Assembly (NCBI GenBank): GCA_902795965.1
Contig: CADBNI010000029.1
Location: 5,067 to 69,066, forward strand
DNA from: an uncultured bacterium
GTDB lineage: Bacteria > Cyanobacteriota > Vampirovibrionia > Gastranaerophilales > Gastranaerophilaceae
Direction: 5' to 3'
DNA: 64,000 bases
A program made the position numbers and the translations under genes. Of the stretch, positions 8,503-43,529 are shown piece after piece. The first letter of the stretch is position 1, and the number at the start of each line of letters is the position of its first letter. The notes under the pieces were generated by a model, which made no database searches, was not told the origin of the DNA, and worked only from the letters and a program-made list of their open reading frames with translations.

Positions 8503-8826
8503 TTATAAAAGATTTTTTACTACGATATCAACTGCTTTCAGCTTTTGGGTATTATTTTTTATAAACTCTAAATTTGAAATAATTTGTGAATAAATCTTTT
8601 CACTGTCTTCTTTGTCATTTGAACGAAACAAATCCTCAGGAGAAATCTTTAAAATCGTAGAGAGTTTGTCTAAAGTTTTTGCGGAAACAAACCCTTTACC
8701 AGTTTCAATAAGACTGAGCGACTTAACTTCCATTTCCAAAAGCTCCGCGAGTTCACTTTGGGTCAAATTTCTTATTTTGCGGGCTTTTCTGATATTTTCA
8801 CCCAATATTTTACAAACATCCGTCAT
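8503..8826 (-). CDS. XRE/Cro-C1 HTH regulator (cassette 1)
   Basis: LGENIRKARKIRNLTQSELAELLEM...LSLIETGK. Confidence 0.9.
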   Translation of the reverse strand: MTDVCKILGENIRKARKIRNLTQSELAELLEMEVKSLSLIETGKGFVSAKTLDKLSTILKISPEDLFRSNDKEDSEKIYSQIISNLEFIKNNTQKLKAVDIVVKNLL

Positions 8827-8887
8827 TTAATAACTCCTACTTAAAATACTATTGATAAGAAATTATAAGGAAACCCAATCTAATAAC

Positions 8888-35801: not shown

Positions 35802-36767
35802 ATGATAATAAATAAGAATGAAAGAAAATCAATAAGATCGGCATTCGGAAAAACCCTTGCCGAATTGGGCAGAAAAAACCCGAATATAGTAGTTTTGGAC
35901 GCGGATTTGTCCTGTTCTACACAAACTCAAATTTTTGCAAAAGAGTTTCCCGACAGATTTTTCAACTGCGGAATTGCAGAACAAGACATGATATCAACTG
36001 CGGCAGGACTTGCCTCTGCGGGCAAAATTCCGTTTGCGGCAACATTTGCAATGTTTGCAACCGGAAGAACGTATGACCAAATTAGAAATTCCGTATGCTA
36101 TCCCGAATTTAACGTAAAAATTGTAGGTACGCACGGAGGAATTACCGTAGGCGAAGACGGTGCGACCCATCAGGCATTAGAAGACGTATCTCTTATGCGT
36201 TCAATCCCGAACATGACGGTTATTGTACCGTCTGATTGCAGGGAATGCGAACAGACAATAAAATTTGCGGCAGAAAATTACGGGCCTATGTACATAAGAA
36301 TTCCGCGTACCAACGTTTGCGATATCTTTGACGAAAATTACGAATTTGATTTTTGCAAAGCCAATGTATTGGAAGAAGGTTCGGAAGTTACCGTAATTTC
36401 TAACGGAGAAACTCTTGCCGAAGTCATTGAAGCATGCGAAAACCTGAAACAAAAGGGTTATTCCATACAAATAATAAGCCTTCCGGTCGTAAAACCGCTT
36501 GATGTTGCAACAATTATCGAAAGCGTCAAAAAAACAAATTTCGTTATTACGGTTGAAAATCATTCGATTATCGGAGGTTTGGGAAGTGCCGTATGTGAAC
36601 TTTTAGCGGAATATTATCCCGTTCCCGTCCACAGAATTGGCTTAAACGATACATTCGGACAAAGCGGAAGATGGGACAATCTGCTTGACTATTACGGGTT
36701 GAGTGCGGAAAAACTTGAAATTACAATAAAAAAATATATTGATAAATATCGTCTAATAAGGAATTAA
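35802..36767 (+). CDS. Transketolase, C-terminal (pyrimidine-binding) subunit
   Basis: FFNCGIAEQ, GEDGATHQALED, TVENHSIIGGLGSAV. Confidence 0.93.
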   Translation: MIINKNERKSIRSAFGKTLAELGRKNPNIVVLDADLSCSTQTQIFAKEFPDRFFNCGIAEQDMISTAAGLASAGKIPFAATFAMFATGRTYDQIRNSVCYPEFNVKIVGTHGGITVGEDGATHQALEDVSLMRSIPNMTVIVPSDCRECEQTIKFAAENYGPMYIRIPRTNVCDIFDENYEFDFCKANVLEEGSEVTVISNGETLAEVIEACENLKQKGYSIQIISLPVVKPLDVATIIESVKKTNFVITVENHSIIGGLGSAVCELLAEYYPVPVHRIGLNDTFGQSGRWDNLLDYYGLSAEKLEITIKKYIDKYRLIRN

Positions 36768-36769
36768 AC

Positions 36770-37447
36770 ATGATTCAATTCAGATCGGTTACAAAAAAAT
36801 ACAAAAACGATAACTATGCACTAAAAAATGTTAATCTTGATATACTATCGGGAGAATTTGTATTTATAGTAGGAGCATCGGGAGCGGGAAAATCAACCCT
36901 GATGAAACTTCTCTATAACGAAGAACGCCCTACAAGCGGAACGGTTACAATCGGAGGCATAAATGTTGCAAACCTCCCGAGCGACAAAGTTCCGAACTTG
37001 AGAAGATGCATGGGAATTGTTTTTCAAGATTACAAATTACTCCAAAATCAAAGTGTTTTTGATAACGTTGCCTACGTAATCAGAACTCTCGGAATAAGTA
37101 CAAAAGAAATTAACGCAAGAGTTTCGGGAGCATTAAAAATCGTAGGCTTATATAACAAAATGAATGCATTTCCCTCTGAACTTTCTGGCGGTGAACAACA
37201 AAGAGTCGGTATCGCTCGTGCAATCGTAAACGGGCCTCCGCTTTTGATTGCGGACGAACCGACAGGAAACCTTGATCCGAAAAATTCAATGGAAATTATG
37301 CAAATTTTGGATCAAATTAACCAGCGCGGAATTACGGTAATTGTTTCAACACACGATAACGCAATGGTTGATTATTTCAGAAAAAGAGTTATTACGCTTG
37401 ACAAAGGCGAAATTGTAAGAGATATACAAGCAGGTACTTATGACTAA
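36770..37447 (+). CDS. ftsE: Cell division ATP-binding protein FtsE
   Basis: GASGAGKST, VFQDYKLL, LSGGEQQRV, ADEPTGNLD. Confidence 0.93.
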   Translation: MIQFRSVTKKYKNDNYALKNVNLDILSGEFVFIVGASGAGKSTLMKLLYNEERPTSGTVTIGGINVANLPSDKVPNLRRCMGIVFQDYKLLQNQSVFDNVAYVIRTLGISTKEINARVSGALKIVGLYNKMNAFPSELSGGEQQRVGIARAIVNGPPLLIADEPTGNLDPKNSMEIMQILDQINQRGITVIVSTHDNAMVDYFRKRVITLDKGEIVRDIQAGTYD

Positions 37448-40490: not shown

Positions 40491-41427
40491 TATCCGATTT
40501 TATCTGCTCTTTTAATTCGTCAAGGGAATTGAATCTGCGTTCGGGACGGAGCATTTTTTCAAAACTAACCTCAATCGTTTCTCCGTATATATCTTCATCA
40601 AAATCAAGAATATGGACCTCTAATATTGCTTTGCTTCCGCTGACCGTAGGTCGAACACCGTAATTTGCAACGGCTTTATAATAGGTATAGAGGCATGGAG
40701 GCATAGAGGTATGGCTATTATCAGTAGTTTCTTGCTTAGTTACCTTGTCTGCGGTCTGAACTTCTGCGGCATACACTCCGTAAGGTAAATTTATCAACTC
40801 AGACGGATATTCAAGATTTGCAGTCCTAAAACCTATCGTCCTGCCGATTTGATTACCCTTGACAACCTCTCCGCGTACAAAAAATTTATAACCAAGCATA
40901 CTGTTCGCTTTTTCAATCTTACCTTCCGACAAAAATTTGCGAATTGCAGTACTGCTGATTATTTCCGATTCATATTTTTTGGGAGGCAGTTCAAAATATT
41001 CATAGCCGAACTTTTTCGCATTATCTTTCAAAAACTTCGGATTTCCCGATTTTTTGTACCCGAAATTGTGATTCCAACCCGTAGATATGGCAACCGGAGT
41101 GAAATTCTTTACCAAACAATCTTTCAAATAATCCTCAGCCGTCAACCCCGAAATTTCTTCAAAATCCAACTCATAAAGATAATCAACTCCAAACTCTGCA
41201 ATTTTTTCCTCACGCATTTCGCGAGTCAAAATATACTTAGGACAAACACCCCAAAAATAACAACAAGGATGATCCCTAAACGTAATAACAGCCGACTTTG
41301 TACCGTTTTGTTTTGCATAATCAACGGCACTTTTTATAACCGCCTGATGTCCCGAATGAACTCCGTCAAAAAAACCGAGCGCAAGCGATAAATTGGGATT
41401 TTTATTTAATTCTGTAAATATTTGCAT
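40474..41427 (-). CDS. ribF: Bifunctional riboflavin kinase/FAD synthetase with in-frame repeat insertion
   Basis: GFFDGVHSGH, ISSTAIR, GRTIGFRTANL, LEVHILDF..DIYGE. Confidence 0.95.
   Translation of the reverse strand: MQIFTELNKNPNLSLALGFFDGVHSGHQAVIKSAVDYAKQNGTKSAVITFRDHPCCYFWGVCPKYILTREMREEKIAEFGVDYLYELDFEEISGLTAEDYLKDCLVKNFTPVAISTGWNHNFGYKKSGNPKFLKDNAKKFGYEYFELPPKKYESEIISSTAIRKFLSEGKIEKANSMLGYKFFVRGEVVKGNQIGRTIGFRTANLEYPSELINLPYGVYAAEVQTADKVTKQETTDNSHTSMPPCLYTYYKAVANYGVRPTVSGSKAILEVHILDFDEDIYGETIEVSFEKMLRPERRFNSLDELKEQIKSDIMGVY
40682..40745. repeat. Half copy of the octamer-arm element, in-frame in ribF
   Basis: taggtata-gaggcatg-gaggcata-gaggtatg-gctatt-atcagt; encodes TDNSHTSMPPCLYT. 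Confidence 0.8.
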
Positions 41428-41447
41428 CTTCTTTTATATTATAGGAC

Positions 41448-41476
41448 TTGAAAAATTATGGTAAATAGTTTATAAT
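41448..41476 (+). promoter_or_regulatory. sigma70 promoter of putative antitoxin sRNA
   Basis: TTGAAA-17 bp-TATAAT. Confidence 0.7.
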
Positions 41477-41482
41477 AAAAAC

Positions 41483-41561
41483 ACAGGGTGGCACCTTGAG
41501 TAAGTGCCGATACTCTGAGAAATCGAAGTAGCACCTATCTTATCGGGTAGGTGTTACTTTT
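41483..41561 (+). ncRNA. Putative ~80-nt antisense (antitoxin) sRNA
   Basis: Promoter upstream, GGCAC/GTGCC hairpin, terminator hairpin 41526-41561 with a T-run, no ORF. Confidence 0.6.
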
Positions 41562-41614
41562 ATTATGTATAAAATCAAGCAAACAATAATTAATGTTAGA
41601 TTGATATTTTCCAT
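41540..41614 (-). CDS. Putative type I toxin, 24-aa hydrophobic peptide MENINLTLIIVCLILYIIKVTPTR
   Basis: Strong RBS AAAGGAGG 6 nt before ATG; single TM-like core with basic tail; too short for the ORF track. Confidence 0.65.
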   Translation of the reverse strand: MENINLTLIIVCLILYIIKVTPTR

Positions 41615-41719
41615 AATTGACCTCCTTTCCTCGGAACAATCGACCGAAATCGAAGTATTAACTGTTGTGTCGATGTTTCTTGGATTAGAGTATCTTTTAC
41701 CCTGTATCAATGTTCAAAA

Positions 41720-41741
41720 AAGGCGGAAAATTTTCCGCCTT
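41720..41741 (-). terminator. aspS intrinsic terminator
   Basis: aaggcgg-aaaatttt-ccgcctt with a T-run on the reverse strand. Confidence 0.75.
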
Positions 41742-41750
41742 CTAAAAATG

Positions 41751-43529
41751 TTATTTTGTATGTGCCGTACTCTTTAAATGAAGTTCTCTCAACTGCTGTA
41801 ATGAGGCTTCACCCGGAGCATCACTCATAAGATCTTTAGCACCTGAATTTTTCGGGAATGCTATTACATCTCTGATACTTTCCGTTCTGCACAACAGAGC
41901 AACAAGTCTGTCCAAACCGATTGCAAGTCCTGCATGAGGCGGAGTTCCGTATTGCAGGGCATTTACCATAAATCCGAATTTTTCTTCGGCTTCTTCCTGA
42001 GTTAAGCCAAGAGCCTTAAAGATTGCCGACTGAACTTCCGATGAATGAATTCTGACAGATCCTCCGCCCAACTCTGTTCCGTTATAAACGATATCATAAG
42101 CGATTGATTTTACGTTACCCAAATCACCCGATTTTAATTTGTCCAAATCCTCAATACAAGGTGATGTGAACGGGTGGTGCATTGCCATAAATCTGCCTTC
42201 TTCATCAGACCATTCAAACATCGGGAAATCAACAACCCAAAGAAGATTGTGTTTGCTTTCGTCAATCAAATCCAATCTTTTACCGAAATACAATCTCAAT
42301 CTGCCCATAATGTCATAAACCAATTTCGGCTTATCTGCAACAAAGAAGATTATATCGCCACTTTGAGCCTGTGCGCGATCTTGAATAGCTTTTGCCTGTT
42401 CTTCGGTCACAAACTTGAGTACGGGAGATTTTGCCGTTCCGTCCTCATTATAAATAATATTCGCAAGAGCTTTCGCACCGAATGAAACAGCCAATTTCGT
42501 AATATCATCAATATCTTTTCTTGAGAATTTAGCACCGCCGGGGATTCTTATACCGCGAACTATACCACCGTTTTCAAGCGTATTTTTAACAATTTGAAAT
42601 TCCGATTGAAGAATAATATCTCCGATATCAAAGAGTTCCAAGCCAAATCTCGTATCGGGTTTGTCGGAACCGTATCTGTCCATAGCCTCCTGCCAAGGCA
42701 TTTGAATAAACGGAGGTTTAACCTCAACACCCGCAGCTTTGAATGTATCTACAATCAAACCTTCTACGGTTTTTATTACATCCTGTTGTTCCACAAACGA
42801 CATTTCAAGGTCAATCTGCGTAAACTCGGGCTGTCTGTCCGCACGCAAATCTTCATCTCTGAAACATTTTGCGATTTGGTAATATTTTTCGATACCGCCG
42901 ACCATCAACAGTTGTTTAAAAATTTGAGGAGATTGAGGAAGTGCATAGAACTTCCCTTCCTGAACACGAGAAGGAACAAGGTAATCTCTCGCACCTTCGG
43001 GAGTTGTTTTAATCAAAATCGGAGTTTCAACTTCCAAAAAGTCCTGATTATTCAAATAATTGCGTGCCGCCTGACAAATTTTATGACGTAAAGTCAAATT
43101 ATGAAGCATACTTTCACGTCTTATATCAAGGTATCTGTATTTCAAGCGAACATCTTCCGATACGTTTTCATCATCAAGGACAAAAGGTAAAGTTTTTGCC
43201 TCTGACAAGATTTCGACAAATTCGGGATACATTTCAACCTGTCCCGTCGGATATTTTTCGTTGTAAGTTTCTTCGGGACGTTTTGAAACTTTTCCTTTTA
43301 CCGTAATAACATATTCGGATCTGACTTTTTCAAAAACTTTATGGACTTCGGGATTGATTTGAGGGTTTGCCACCAACTGGAAAAATCCGCTTCTGTCACG
43401 CAATTCAATAAACAAAATTCCGCCGAGGTCACGAATAGTTGATGCCCAGCCCGATAGTGTAACTTCTTCATTCAAATTGCTTAGATTTAATTCTCCGCAA
43501 TTATGGTCTTTCAATCGTGTTTTTATCAT
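41751..43529 (-). CDS. aspS: Aspartate-tRNA ligase
   Basis: RDLGGILFIELRDRSG, FYALPQSPQ, FRDEDLRADRQPEFTQ, PPHAGLAIGLDR. Confidence 0.98.
   Translation of the reverse strand: MIKTRLKDHNCGELNLSNLNEEVTLSGWASTIRDLGGILFIELRDRSGFFQLVANPQINPEVHKVFEKVRSEYVITVKGKVSKRPEETYNEKYPTGQVEMYPEFVEILSEAKTLPFVLDDENVSEDVRLKYRYLDIRRESMLHNLTLRHKICQAARNYLNNQDFLEVETPILIKTTPEGARDYLVPSRVQEGKFYALPQSPQIFKQLLMVGGIEKYYQIAKCFRDEDLRADRQPEFTQIDLEMSFVEQQDVIKTVEGLIVDTFKAAGVEVKPPFIQMPWQEAMDRYGSDKPDTRFGLELFDIGDIILQSEFQIVKNTLENGGIVRGIRIPGGAKFSRKDIDDITKLAVSFGAKALANIIYNEDGTAKSPVLKFVTEEQAKAIQDRAQAQSGDIIFFVADKPKLVYDIMGRLRLYFGKRLDLIDESKHNLLWVVDFPMFEWSDEEGRFMAMHHPFTSPCIEDLDKLKSGDLGNVKSIAYDIVYNGTELGGGSVRIHSSEVQSAIFKALGLTQEEAEEKFGFMVNALQYGTPPHAGLAIGLDRLVALLCRTESIRDVIAFPKNSGAKDLMSDAPGEASLQQLRELHLKSTAHTK

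What the first reader, a model, noticed from the sequence alone, without database searches (positions are those of the whole stretch)
41448..41717. Unannotated type I toxin-antitoxin-like locus between ribF and aspS
Seen: a reverse-strand 24-aa hydrophobic ORF with AAAGGAGG RBS; a convergent ~80-nt sRNA with TTGAAA-17-TATAAT promoter; a shared hairpin (41526-41561) overlapping the toxin stop; and a 12-bp direct repeat GAAATCGAAGTA at 41519-41530 (in the sRNA) and 41646-41657 (toxin 5' UTR), making the sRNA complementary to both ends of the mRNA. CAGGGT/GATACTCT also recurs inverted at 41687-41704. Known: this is the layout of the Enterococcus pAD1 par (Fst/RNA II) system. Inference: a new type I TA family; the peptide lacks the Fst motif.
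Basis: partly seen in the sequence, partly recalled or inferred. Interest (0 to 1): 0.7.

Follow-up and report, generated by a model that had tools for sequence, protein, structure and literature searches.

The report
New type I toxin-antitoxin family, Melainabacteria
A 270-bp insert between two housekeeping genes of an uncultured gut Melainabacterium encodes a 24-residue membrane peptide and an opposing ~80-nt RNA that pairs with the peptide's mRNA; more than 100 related copies share this layout, so it looks like a previously undescribed type I toxin-antitoxin family, although neither expression nor toxicity has been tested.

Summary
The module (41446-41717) is a compact insertion. In many species of the same genus ribF and aspS lie only 26-90 nt apart. 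It belongs to a multi-copy family found almost only in gut Gastranaerophilales (Melainabacteria). I collected 126 distinct modules encoding 99 distinct 20-29-aa peptides (consensus MxNFNLxLxLIFLILxILKNGSxxxR).

The small RNA's two hairpins keep their pairing through compensatory changes. It folds far better than its complement (-33.5 vs -21.1 kcal/mol). The short repeat that makes it complementary to the toxin 5'UTR differs between loci but matches within each locus (cognate duplex -14.8 vs non-cognate -9.1 kcal/mol).

The inverted CAGGGT/GATACTCT motif also co-varies within loci. Its mismatches are nearly all G·U-compatible, which suggests a 5'-3' fold-back of a read-through toxin mRNA.

Peptide and RNA match no Pfam, NCBIfam, PDB or Rfam family, and the peptide lacks the Fst PXXXG motif. 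The layout is par-like, but the module is not a member of the Fst family.

Copies also sit in prophage tail and lysis regions.

The parts
41446..41717 (.). Whole ~270-bp module, inserted between the ribF promoter and the aspS terminator
   Evidence: In same-genus genomes the ribF-aspS spacer is only 26-90 nt and lacks the module (empty site read in L166).
41448..41476 (+). sRNA (antitoxin) promoter TTGAAA-17-TATAAT
   Evidence: 11/12 consensus match. The hexamers are conserved at the same place in the family alignment.
41483..41566 (+). Predicted ~80-nt antisense sRNA. The start is inferred 7 nt after the -10 box; the end is the T-run after the terminator.
   Evidence: Fold -35 kcal/mol, z -5.4. 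15 of 19 consensus pairs carry compensatory changes in 116 homologues. The sRNA strand folds better than its complement in 121 of 122 cases. Covariance model (CM) R1 scores it 67 bits.
41484..41517 (+). sRNA 5' domain: P1 (CAGGGT 41484-89 with ACTCTG 41512-17) enclosing hairpin P2 (GGCAC 41490-94 with GTGCC 41504-08)
   Evidence: P2 pairs co-vary: CG 62 / UA 48, GC 97 / CG 16. In P1, GGG or GAG co-varies with CCC, CUC or CCU.
41519..41530 (+). sRNA recognition element GAAAUCGAAGUA, complementary to the toxin 5'UTR
   Evidence: Exact 12-nt direct repeat. Cognate duplex energy is -14.8 vs -9.1 kcal/mol for non-cognate pairs, p 1e-53. G·U is tolerated in the real orientation (81 vs 34).
41525..41560 (.). 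Shared terminator hairpin, strong on the sRNA strand and weaker on the mRNA strand; holds the toxin stop codon in its loop
   Evidence: Many U·G pairs on the sRNA strand become A·C mismatches on the mRNA strand.
41540..41614 (-). 24-aa hydrophobic peptide ORF MENINLTLIIVCLILYIIKVTPTR (putative toxin)
   Evidence: 99 distinct homologous peptides of 20-29 aa. 17 of 20 loci found through the sRNA alone carry the intact ORF at a fixed distance.
41621..41628 (-). Shine-Dalgarno AAAGGAGG, 6 nt before the ATG
   Evidence: Read. AAAGG(A/G)GG is conserved in the family.
41634..41679 (-). 5'UTR hairpin (arms 41669-79 and 41634-44) that presents the sRNA target in its loop
   Evidence: Inverted repeat I8. 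It is present in the predicted minimum-free-energy (MFE) fold. The arms change in step between loci, e.g. AUCGAC/GUCGAU, AUCAGC/GCUGAU, CUGACC/GGUUAG.
41646..41657 (-). sRNA target UACUUCGAUUUC in the toxin 5'UTR, 17 nt upstream of the SD
41687..41705 (-). Toxin mRNA 5' motif ACAGGGUAAAAGAUACUCU, an inverted copy of the two halves of the sRNA 5' domain
   Evidence: (I11). It co-varies with the sRNA motif within loci. Differences are 34 G·U-compatible vs 2 incompatible transitions. The 228-nt read-through RNA closes 5' to 3' in its MFE fold, z -5.2.
41706..41717 (-). Region where a toxin promoter would lie. The match is weak: either AACATT as a poor -10, or TTGAAC-17-GATACT running into the motif.
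   Evidence: Best sigma-70 match placed like the family's promoters is only 6/12, whereas 72 of 113 family members reach at least 8/12.

Best explanation
This is a self-contained type I toxin-antitoxin-like module of a family not described before.

Anatomy, shown by sequence and comparison. The minus strand encodes a small mRNA for a 24-aa single-helix membrane peptide. The plus strand encodes a convergent ~80-nt sRNA from a strong promoter. The two genes overlap at a shared terminator hairpin, so the sRNA is fully complementary to the last codons and 3' end of the mRNA. A 12-nt single-stranded element of the sRNA also pairs with the loop of a hairpin in the toxin 5'UTR, 17 nt upstream of the SD. 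That second contact is locus-specific: its sequence differs between copies, including the two copies in this genome, but always matches within a copy.

Mechanism, inferred.
- The sRNA keeps the peptide from being made. It could block a ribosome stand-by or entry site upstream of the SD, as in tisB/IstR-1 and zorO/OrzO. It could also mark the duplexes for RNase cleavage.
- A read-through form of the toxin mRNA runs to about 41478. In that form its 5' end (ACAGGGU..GAUACUCU) pairs with the antisense of the sRNA's 5' domain. This closes the molecule 5' to 3' as in hok or aapA1 mRNAs and keeps it stable and inert.
- If made, the peptide inserts into the membrane and is toxic.
For: Anatomy.

Family:
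- 33 of 61 relatives matched by BLASTN.
- At least 119 stretches in 185,579 species genomes, nearly all labelled Melainabacteria, Gastranaerophilales or Vampirovibrio.
- 126 modules with 99 distinct peptides.
- The sRNA CM hits 103 of 401 genomes of the class, up to 7 copies per genome, some in tandem arrays.

sRNA is a real structured RNA:
- 15 of 19 pairs have compensatory changes.
- The sRNA strand folds at -33.5 vs -21.1 kcal/mol for its complement (121 of 122 cases).

RNA-RNA pairing:
- The repeat varies between loci but is kept within each locus.
- Cognate duplexes average -14.8 vs -9.1 kcal/mol for non-cognate (p 1e-53).
- The true orientation beats the complemented one (81 vs 34, p 1.5e-7).

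Fold-back:
- Cognate -20.0 vs non-cognate -14.2 kcal/mol.
- 34 G·U-compatible vs 2 incompatible transitions.
- The 228-nt read-through fold has z -5.2.
- Helix A is 90-93% paired with compensatory changes.

TA-like genetics:
- The module is an insertion with non-syntenic copies.
- The second copy in this genome has a different repeat.
- Among 20 loci found through the sRNA, 3 have a truncated or frame-shifted ORF but keep the sRNA. Only 1 of 126 loci found through the ORF lacks the sRNA.
- Complete modules sit in prophage tail-fibre and endolysin regions.

No alternative identity: no Rfam, Pfam, NCBIfam or PDB match.
Against:
- Toxicity and rescue are untested, and the organism is uncultured.
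- The focal copy's toxin promoter is a poor sigma-70 match (6/12). This particular copy may express little toxin, or only by read-through of the aspS terminator.
- The sRNA's 5'UTR target does not cover the SD or the start codon, so direct occlusion as in par is not evident.
- An energy-based strand-asymmetry test of the 5'-3' helices was neutral (60 vs 60). The excess of T in the mRNA where the sRNA has C could also come from relaxed constraint plus AT bias.
- The codon-position test is biased, because the search pattern fixed many second positions.
- The modules are phylogenetically related, so the p-values overstate independence.
Confidence: 0.75

Rival explanations
1. The module is an antisense-regulated small membrane protein that is not a toxin, for example a regulator or accessory subunit of a membrane complex. 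The sRNA would tune expression rather than neutralise a poison.
For: Everything shown here (conserved ORF, sRNA, pairing) is equally compatible with a non-toxic peptide. Pfam gives only noise-level hits to small membrane proteins such as phospholamban, SMIM43 and the BhlA holin.
Against: - The module is multi-copy, non-syntenic, found in tandem arrays and carried on prophages.
- Each copy has its own locus-specific recognition code.
- Decayed copies lose the ORF but keep the sRNA.

These features are typical of type I TA loci and hard to explain for a housekeeping micro-protein. No conserved partner gene lies next to the module.
Confidence: 0.13
2. The focal copy is a silenced or decaying member. 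The sRNA is made but the toxin gene is no longer transcribed, so the locus acts at most as an orphan antitoxin.
For: The toxin promoter is only a 6/12 match and abuts the aspS terminator, whereas most family members have a better promoter placed 4-9 nt upstream of the motif (strong examples). Orphan-sRNA relics exist elsewhere in the family.
Against: ORF, SD, 5'UTR hairpin, 12/12 repeat match and 5' motif are all intact in the focal copy. Weak toxin promoters are normal for type I systems (general knowledge). Read-through from aspS is possible.
Confidence: 0.2
3. The module is a miniature mobile element (MITE-like) whose terminal inverted repeats are the CAGGGT/GATACTCT motifs. The ORF and 'sRNA' would be incidental.
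For: It is a ~270-bp unit flanked by inverted repeats, multi-copy, and inserted in intergenic DNA, with empty sites in relatives.
Against: - The inverted repeats differ between copies within one genome but match within a copy. That is not expected for ends recognised by one transposase.
- The ORF stays open, with conservative substitutions, in 99 variants.
- Promoters, SD and terminator are conserved. Hairpins carry compensatory changes and strong strand asymmetry.
- No target-site duplication was seen.
Confidence: 0.03
4. The region is a cis-regulatory leader of ribF, such as a riboswitch or attenuator with a leader peptide.
For: It lies directly upstream of ribF on the same strand as the small ORF.
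Against: - It is absent from the ribF-aspS spacer of all 40 other species of the genus searched.
- Homologues sit in unrelated contexts, including prophages.
- There is no Rfam match, FMN riboswitch included.
- A ribF promoter-like site (41465-41438) lies downstream of the module.
Confidence: 0.02

Closest known systems
par (Fst / RNA II) of Enterococcus faecalis pAD1 and the Fst/Ldr family (PMC7472228)
   Same: Both have convergent promoters, a shared intrinsic terminator that gives complementary 3' stem-loops, DNA direct repeats read in opposite directions that give a second contact near the mRNA 5' end, and a small single-helix hydrophobic peptide. Both are multi-copy and occur on chromosomes and on mobile elements or phages. 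Both sequester the extreme 5' end of the toxin RNA within the molecule.
   Different: - There is no sequence relation: Pfam Fst, Ldr and the other toxin models do not match.
- The peptide is 20-29 aa, with no PXXXG motif, no conserved Trp and only a very short basic tail.
- There is one repeat (8-12 nt), not DRa plus DRb. It lies in a 5'UTR hairpin loop 17-21 nt upstream of the SD, not over the SD and start codon.
- The sRNA is ~85 nt and carries an extra structured 5' domain.
- The host phylum is Melainabacteria (Cyanobacteriota), not Firmicutes.
hok/sok (plasmid R1) and aapA1/IsoA1 (Helicobacter pylori)
   Same: The primary toxin mRNA is predicted to be locked by a long-distance 5'-3' pairing (the fold-back inhibition element fbi in hok; the 5'-3' long-distance interaction (LDI) in aapA1). 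The system is multi-copy, and the toxins are membrane peptides.
   Different: Here the 3' partner of the fold-back would be the antisense of the antitoxin's own 5' domain, reached only by read-through of the first terminator. There is no mok-like leader ORF. Peptides and RNAs are unrelated. The fold-back is inferred from covariation only.
tisB/IstR-1 and zorO/OrzO (E. coli)
   Same: The antitoxin pairs with a short (12-20 nt) stretch of the 5'UTR upstream of the SD rather than with the SD itself. This suggests competition for a stand-by or entry site.
   Different: Those antitoxins are divergently encoded trans-type sRNAs with no 3' overlap. Here the sRNA also overlaps the toxin 3' end. No stand-by site has been demonstrated.
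Ibs/Sib and other very short type I toxins (18-19 aa)
   Same: The toxins are extremely short and almost purely hydrophobic, and the loci are repeated in the genome.
   Different: Sib RNAs are fully antisense to the whole ibs ORF. There is no sequence similarity.
MsoT1/MsoA1 of Microcystis aeruginosa (PMC12390103)
   Same: It is a candidate type I TA from the cyanobacterial lineage, with an antitoxin complementary to the toxin 3' end.
   Different: MsoT1 is 63 aa with two predicted helices and is unrelated. That paper states type I systems were otherwise known only in Proteobacteria, Firmicutes and Tenericutes. The present family is in the non-photosynthetic sister class.

Membership tests
Fst/Ldr toxin family (par-type loci) | Toxin matches the Fst/Ldr sequence family (Pfam Fst_toxin / Ldr_toxin models) | tested here: not met
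   hmmscan of the focal peptide and of 99 family peptides against Pfam-A at E<=10 gave no type I toxin family. NCBIfam gave none.
Fst/Ldr toxin family (par-type loci) | PXXXG motif in the transmembrane helix, conserved Trp, charged C-terminal tail (PMC7472228) | tested here: not met
   MENINLTLIIVCLILYIIKVTPTR and the consensus MxNFNLxLxLIFLILxILKNGSxxxR have no Pro or Gly in the helix and no Trp. The tail is 1-8 residues, polar or basic.
Fst/Ldr toxin family (par-type loci) | Convergent promoters and a shared bidirectional intrinsic terminator | tested here: met
   The sRNA promoter scores 11/12 and the hairpin is at 41525-41560. Both are conserved in the family. The toxin promoter is weak in the focal copy but good in most relatives. 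These are sequence predictions only.
Fst/Ldr toxin family (par-type loci) | Pair of direct repeats (DRa, DRb) whose pairing sequesters the SD and start codon | tested here: not met
   A single repeat (12 nt) lies 17 nt upstream of the SD. A second, partial repeat (D2, 79%) is not conserved in an obvious way.
Fst antitoxin RNA and other antitoxin RNA families in Rfam | Match to a curated covariance model | tested here: not met
   cmscan of 41300-41850 at E<=10 returned only terminator-like and noise hits; no antitoxin family matched.
Type I toxin-antitoxin system (generic) | Small (<60 aa) hydrophobic protein encoded next to an antisense RNA gene | tested here: met
   The arrangement is conserved in 126 modules.
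Type I toxin-antitoxin system (generic) | Antitoxin RNA base-pairs with the toxin mRNA | tested here: met
   In silico only. There is a ~45-nt 3' overlap plus a 12-bp 5'UTR contact. Covariation shows as cognate vs non-cognate energies and G·U strand asymmetry.
Type I toxin-antitoxin system (generic) | Both RNAs are expressed | not testable with these tools
Type I toxin-antitoxin system (generic) | Protein is toxic when over-produced, and the RNA prevents its synthesis | not testable with these tools
   This needs experiments. The only indirect hint is that decayed copies keep the sRNA and lose the ORF (3 of 20 vs 1 of 126 the other way).

The most novel reading that the evidence does not exclude
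The family may be a type I TA design in which the antitoxin gene does double duty. Its sense transcript is the antitoxin. Its antisense strand, reached by read-through of the leaky first terminator, supplies the 3' half of a 5'-3' clamp that locks the toxin mRNA. Transcription, termination and antitoxin binding at one 35-bp segment would then decide together whether the toxin message is inert or active.

Each copy carries its own short 'address' (dozens of variants), which gives arrays of mutually orthogonal toxin-antitoxin pairs. Some copies ride on prophages as maintenance or exclusion cassettes. This would be the first well-populated type I TA family in the Cyanobacteriota lineage.
Probability: 0.35. 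Interest if true: 0.75.

Novelty: new member of a known kind. Interest (0 to 1): 0.58.

Why it matters
[quoted passage not shown] A single experimental candidate exists in Microcystis (PMC12390103). No paper in the searched library links them to Melainabacteria.

- The family extends the class to uncultured, non-photosynthetic gut relatives of cyanobacteria. Gene callers miss both partners there; the peptide is absent from a 5.8-billion-protein collection.
- More than 100 natural variants carry co-varying recognition sequences. They form a ready-made data set on how sRNA-mRNA specificity evolves, and a source of orthogonal regulator pairs.
- The prophage-borne copies suggest roles in prophage maintenance or phage exclusion in a poorly known gut lineage.

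Tried and rejected
- Protein homology searches: the peptide is too short.
- Rfam, Pfam, NCBIfam and PDB: no meaningful match.
- GenBank phages and PLSDB plasmids: no match.
- BLASTN of the module against its own genome missed the second copy. The covariance model found it.
- Gapped global alignment of the mRNA motif to the sRNA 5' domain gave contaminated substitution counts. I replaced it with an ungapped anchored comparison.
- The energy-based strand-asymmetry test of the 5'-3' helices was neutral.
- pN/pS and codon-position diversity are not usable as evidence, because the search pattern fixed many codon positions.
- The count of structure pairs on the MAFFT alignment under-counts pairing in the variable helices because of misregister. 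It is still above the shuffles and peaks at slide 0.
- Whole-molecule RNAduplex of the UTR against the sRNA gave a meaningless long duplex.
- ribF leader and MITE readings were rejected on distribution and on within-genome variation of the inverted repeats.

Full report
**Observation.**
- The minus-strand ORF 41614..41540 encodes MENINLTLIIVCLILYIIKVTPTR. AAAGGAGG lies at 41628..41621, 6 nt upstream.
- The plus-strand promoter TTGAAA-17-TATAAT (41448-41476) matches 11/12.
- A 16-pair hairpin followed by a T-run (41525-41560) holds the toxin stop codon in its loop.
- The exact 12-nt direct repeat GAAATCGAAGTA is at 41519-41530 and 41646-41657.
- The inverted motif is CAGGGT 41484-89 / GATACTCT 41509-16 against AGAGTATC 41687-94 / ACCCTG 41699-704.
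- The predicted sRNA (41483-41566) folds into a 5' domain (P1 enclosing hairpin P2), a short single-stranded linker and the terminator: -35 kcal/mol, z -5.4.
- No Rfam family matches.

**The module is an insertion and belongs to a family.** In many species of the same genus ribF and aspS are separated by only 26-90 nt. The spacer there holds just a ribF promoter and the aspS terminator (empty site read in L166). None of the 40 other species searched has the module at this site. The insert is therefore about 41446-41717.

Homologous modules occur elsewhere.
- BLASTN found them in 33 of 61 relatives, often several per genome.
- A degenerate pattern for the ORF start found at least 119 stretches among 185,579 species genomes. 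Nearly all are labelled Melainabacteria, Gastranaerophilales or Vampirovibrio, and some form tandem arrays with a period of ~325 nt.
- From these I extracted 126 distinct modules with 99 distinct peptides of 20-29 aa, consensus MxNFNLxLxLIFLILxILKNGSxxxR.
- A covariance model of the sRNA (R1) hit 103 of 401 genomes of the class. Almost all strong hits are in one family, in 28 of 136 genera, with up to 7 copies per genome.
- One full module lies in another family of the order (L019).
- The model also revealed a second copy in the window's own genome on contig C31. Its peptide is MDNFNLTLIMLFLILFITRNDTHNKM, and it has a different repeat (TTCAATCTC) and a different motif half B.

**The sRNA is a real structured RNA.** In 116 homologues, 15 of 19 consensus pairs keep pairing through double changes, for example CG 62 / UA 48, CG 60 / UA 50, and AU 61 / GC 28 / GU 23. 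The sRNA strand folds at -33.5 kcal/mol on average against -21.1 for its reverse complement, better in 121 of 122 cases. Many U·G pairs exist only on that strand. The 'bidirectional' terminator is therefore much stronger for the sRNA than for the mRNA.

**The sRNA and the mRNA co-evolve.** The direct repeat has dozens of different sequences across loci, such as ACTTCGATTTC, TTAGACTTTC, TAGACCTC, CTTAGAACTC and TTCAAGCTTC. It is nevertheless repeated within each locus.
- Duplex energies between the sRNA linker and the 5'UTR average -14.8 kcal/mol for cognate pairs and -9.1 for non-cognate pairs (p 1e-53).
- The true orientation is better than the doubly complemented one (81 vs 34, p 1.5e-7). 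G·U pairs are therefore tolerated as expected for RNA-RNA pairing rather than mere DNA repetition.
- The target sits in the loop of a 5'UTR hairpin whose arms also change in step between loci. It lies 17-21 nt upstream of the SD.

**The inverted motif.** Because it is inverted in DNA and the genes converge, both RNAs begin with the same sequence, not complementary ones.
- Half A (CAGGGT or CAGAGT, or GGGGC in a second class) and half B (GATACTCT, GATGCCTT, GACAGCTC, GAATCTCT and others) differ among loci, even within one genome. They match within a locus.
- Cognate pairing of the mRNA 5' motif with the antisense of the sRNA 5' domain averages -20.0 vs -14.2 kcal/mol for non-cognate pairs.
- In an anchored comparison, 34 of 36 transition differences are of the kind that gives G·U in that pairing, and 2 give A·C.
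- A minus-strand RNA reading through to about 41478 folds with these two helices closing the molecule: -64.6 kcal/mol, z -5.2.
- On the MAFFT alignment helix A is 90-93% paired with compensatory changes. The whole-structure signal exceeds all shuffles and peaks at slide 0.
- Against this, an energy-based strand test was neutral. The dominant T-for-C differences could reflect relaxed constraint plus AT bias.

I rate the fold-back at roughly even odds. The repeats (6-9 bp, interrupted) are too short for gene conversion. They vary within genomes, which argues against transposase ends.

**Coding and TA-like behaviour.** Twenty loci were found through the sRNA model alone, so the sample is unbiased with respect to the ORF.
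- 17 of the 20 carry the intact ORF at a fixed distance, with the same M-[DEN]-x-[FI]-N start and a hydrophobic core.
- The other three keep the sRNA but have a truncated or frame-shifted ORF.
- Only one of 126 ORF-ascertained modules lacks the sRNA. It is the last unit of a tandem array.

This asymmetry, the multi-copy non-syntenic distribution and the orthogonal 'addresses' are what is expected of toxin-antitoxin pairs. Six IMG/VR viral contigs from one metagenome carry complete modules between tail-fibre or tail-fibre-assembly genes and a tail chaperone plus endolysin. The family therefore also travels on prophages.

**Comparison with known systems.** The layout is that of par of pAD1: convergent promoters, a shared terminator, and direct repeats read in opposite directions (PMC7472228). 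The module still fails the family's defining tests.
- There is no Pfam or NCBIfam match for any of 99 peptides.
- There is no PXXXG motif, no conserved Trp and no charged tail.
- There is one repeat, placed upstream of rather than over the initiation region.
- There is no Rfam antitoxin match.

The upstream target recalls tisB/IstR-1 and zorO/OrzO. The possible 5'-3' lock recalls hok and aapA1. A 2025 paper states that type I systems are known only from Proteobacteria, Firmicutes and Tenericutes, plus a candidate in Microcystis whose toxin is a 63-aa two-helix protein (PMC12390103). No paper in the library combines type I TA with Melainabacteria.

**Caveats.**
- The focal copy's toxin promoter matches sigma-70 consensus only 6/12 and abuts the aspS terminator. 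By contrast, 72 of 113 relatives reach at least 8/12 with the start at the motif. This copy may be weakly expressed or silent.
- The statistics treat related loci as independent.

**Verdict.** This is a new, well-populated family of par-like type I toxin-antitoxin candidates in gut Melainabacteria. It is not a member of the Fst family, and its function remains to be shown.

Noticed in passing
Own genome, contig C31 about 8610-8870 (L157:1010-1270), outside the window: A second complete copy of the family. Its peptide is MDNFNLTLIMLFLILFITRNDTHNKM, its repeat is TTCAATCTC and its 5' motif is GCAGGGT..AAAGACTCT. All three differ from the focal copy but match its own sRNA. Its toxin promoter (TATAAT) is better than the focal one.
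   Followed up: partly
Own genome, contig C71 (L002:415-640), outside the window: A different candidate type I TA-like module. A TTGAAA-17-TATAAT promoter drives a ~70-nt RNA that starts ACATAGGGGCAAGCCCC. It converges on a 24-aa hydrophobic ORF, MLDKIIVLLFIATLFIVALKISHL, which has a strong SD (AAAAGGAGGG). The sRNA model R1 does not detect it, so it may be a second family that shares the promoter and 5' start.
   Followed up: no
L188-L193 (IMG/VR UViGs from metagenome 3300045988): Complete modules sit inside tailed-phage regions. They lie between tail-fibre or tail-fibre-assembly genes and a tail assembly chaperone plus endolysin (PHROG hits), the typical position of a phage 'moron'.
   Followed up: partly
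ribF-aspS spacer in same-genus genomes (G034, G022, G001, G030, G013, G031 and others): The same spacer is 26-90 nt in many species but 430-1230 nt in others, and none of those holds this module. The site seems to be a hot spot for different insertions. The other inserts were not examined.
   Followed up: no
L180:1340-1500 and L172:1340-1480: These are orphan sRNA genes whose toxin 5' half has been replaced. In L180 the replacement is two copies of a palindromic REP-like repeat (GTAGGTTGGGCATAC.TGCCCAACTATATAA). In L172 it is a tRNA gene and its terminator.
   Followed up: partly
window 41438-41465 (minus strand): A ribF promoter-like site (TTTACC-16-TATAAT, 10/12) overlaps the sRNA promoter back to back. 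The insert may therefore have altered or co-opted ribF promoter context.
   Followed up: no
L011 (G014:C5 about 36295-36810): A tandem pair of modules. The second unit has lost its ATG (ATAAGAAAGATATC...) while keeping the SD, the rest of the ORF and the sRNA.
   Followed up: no
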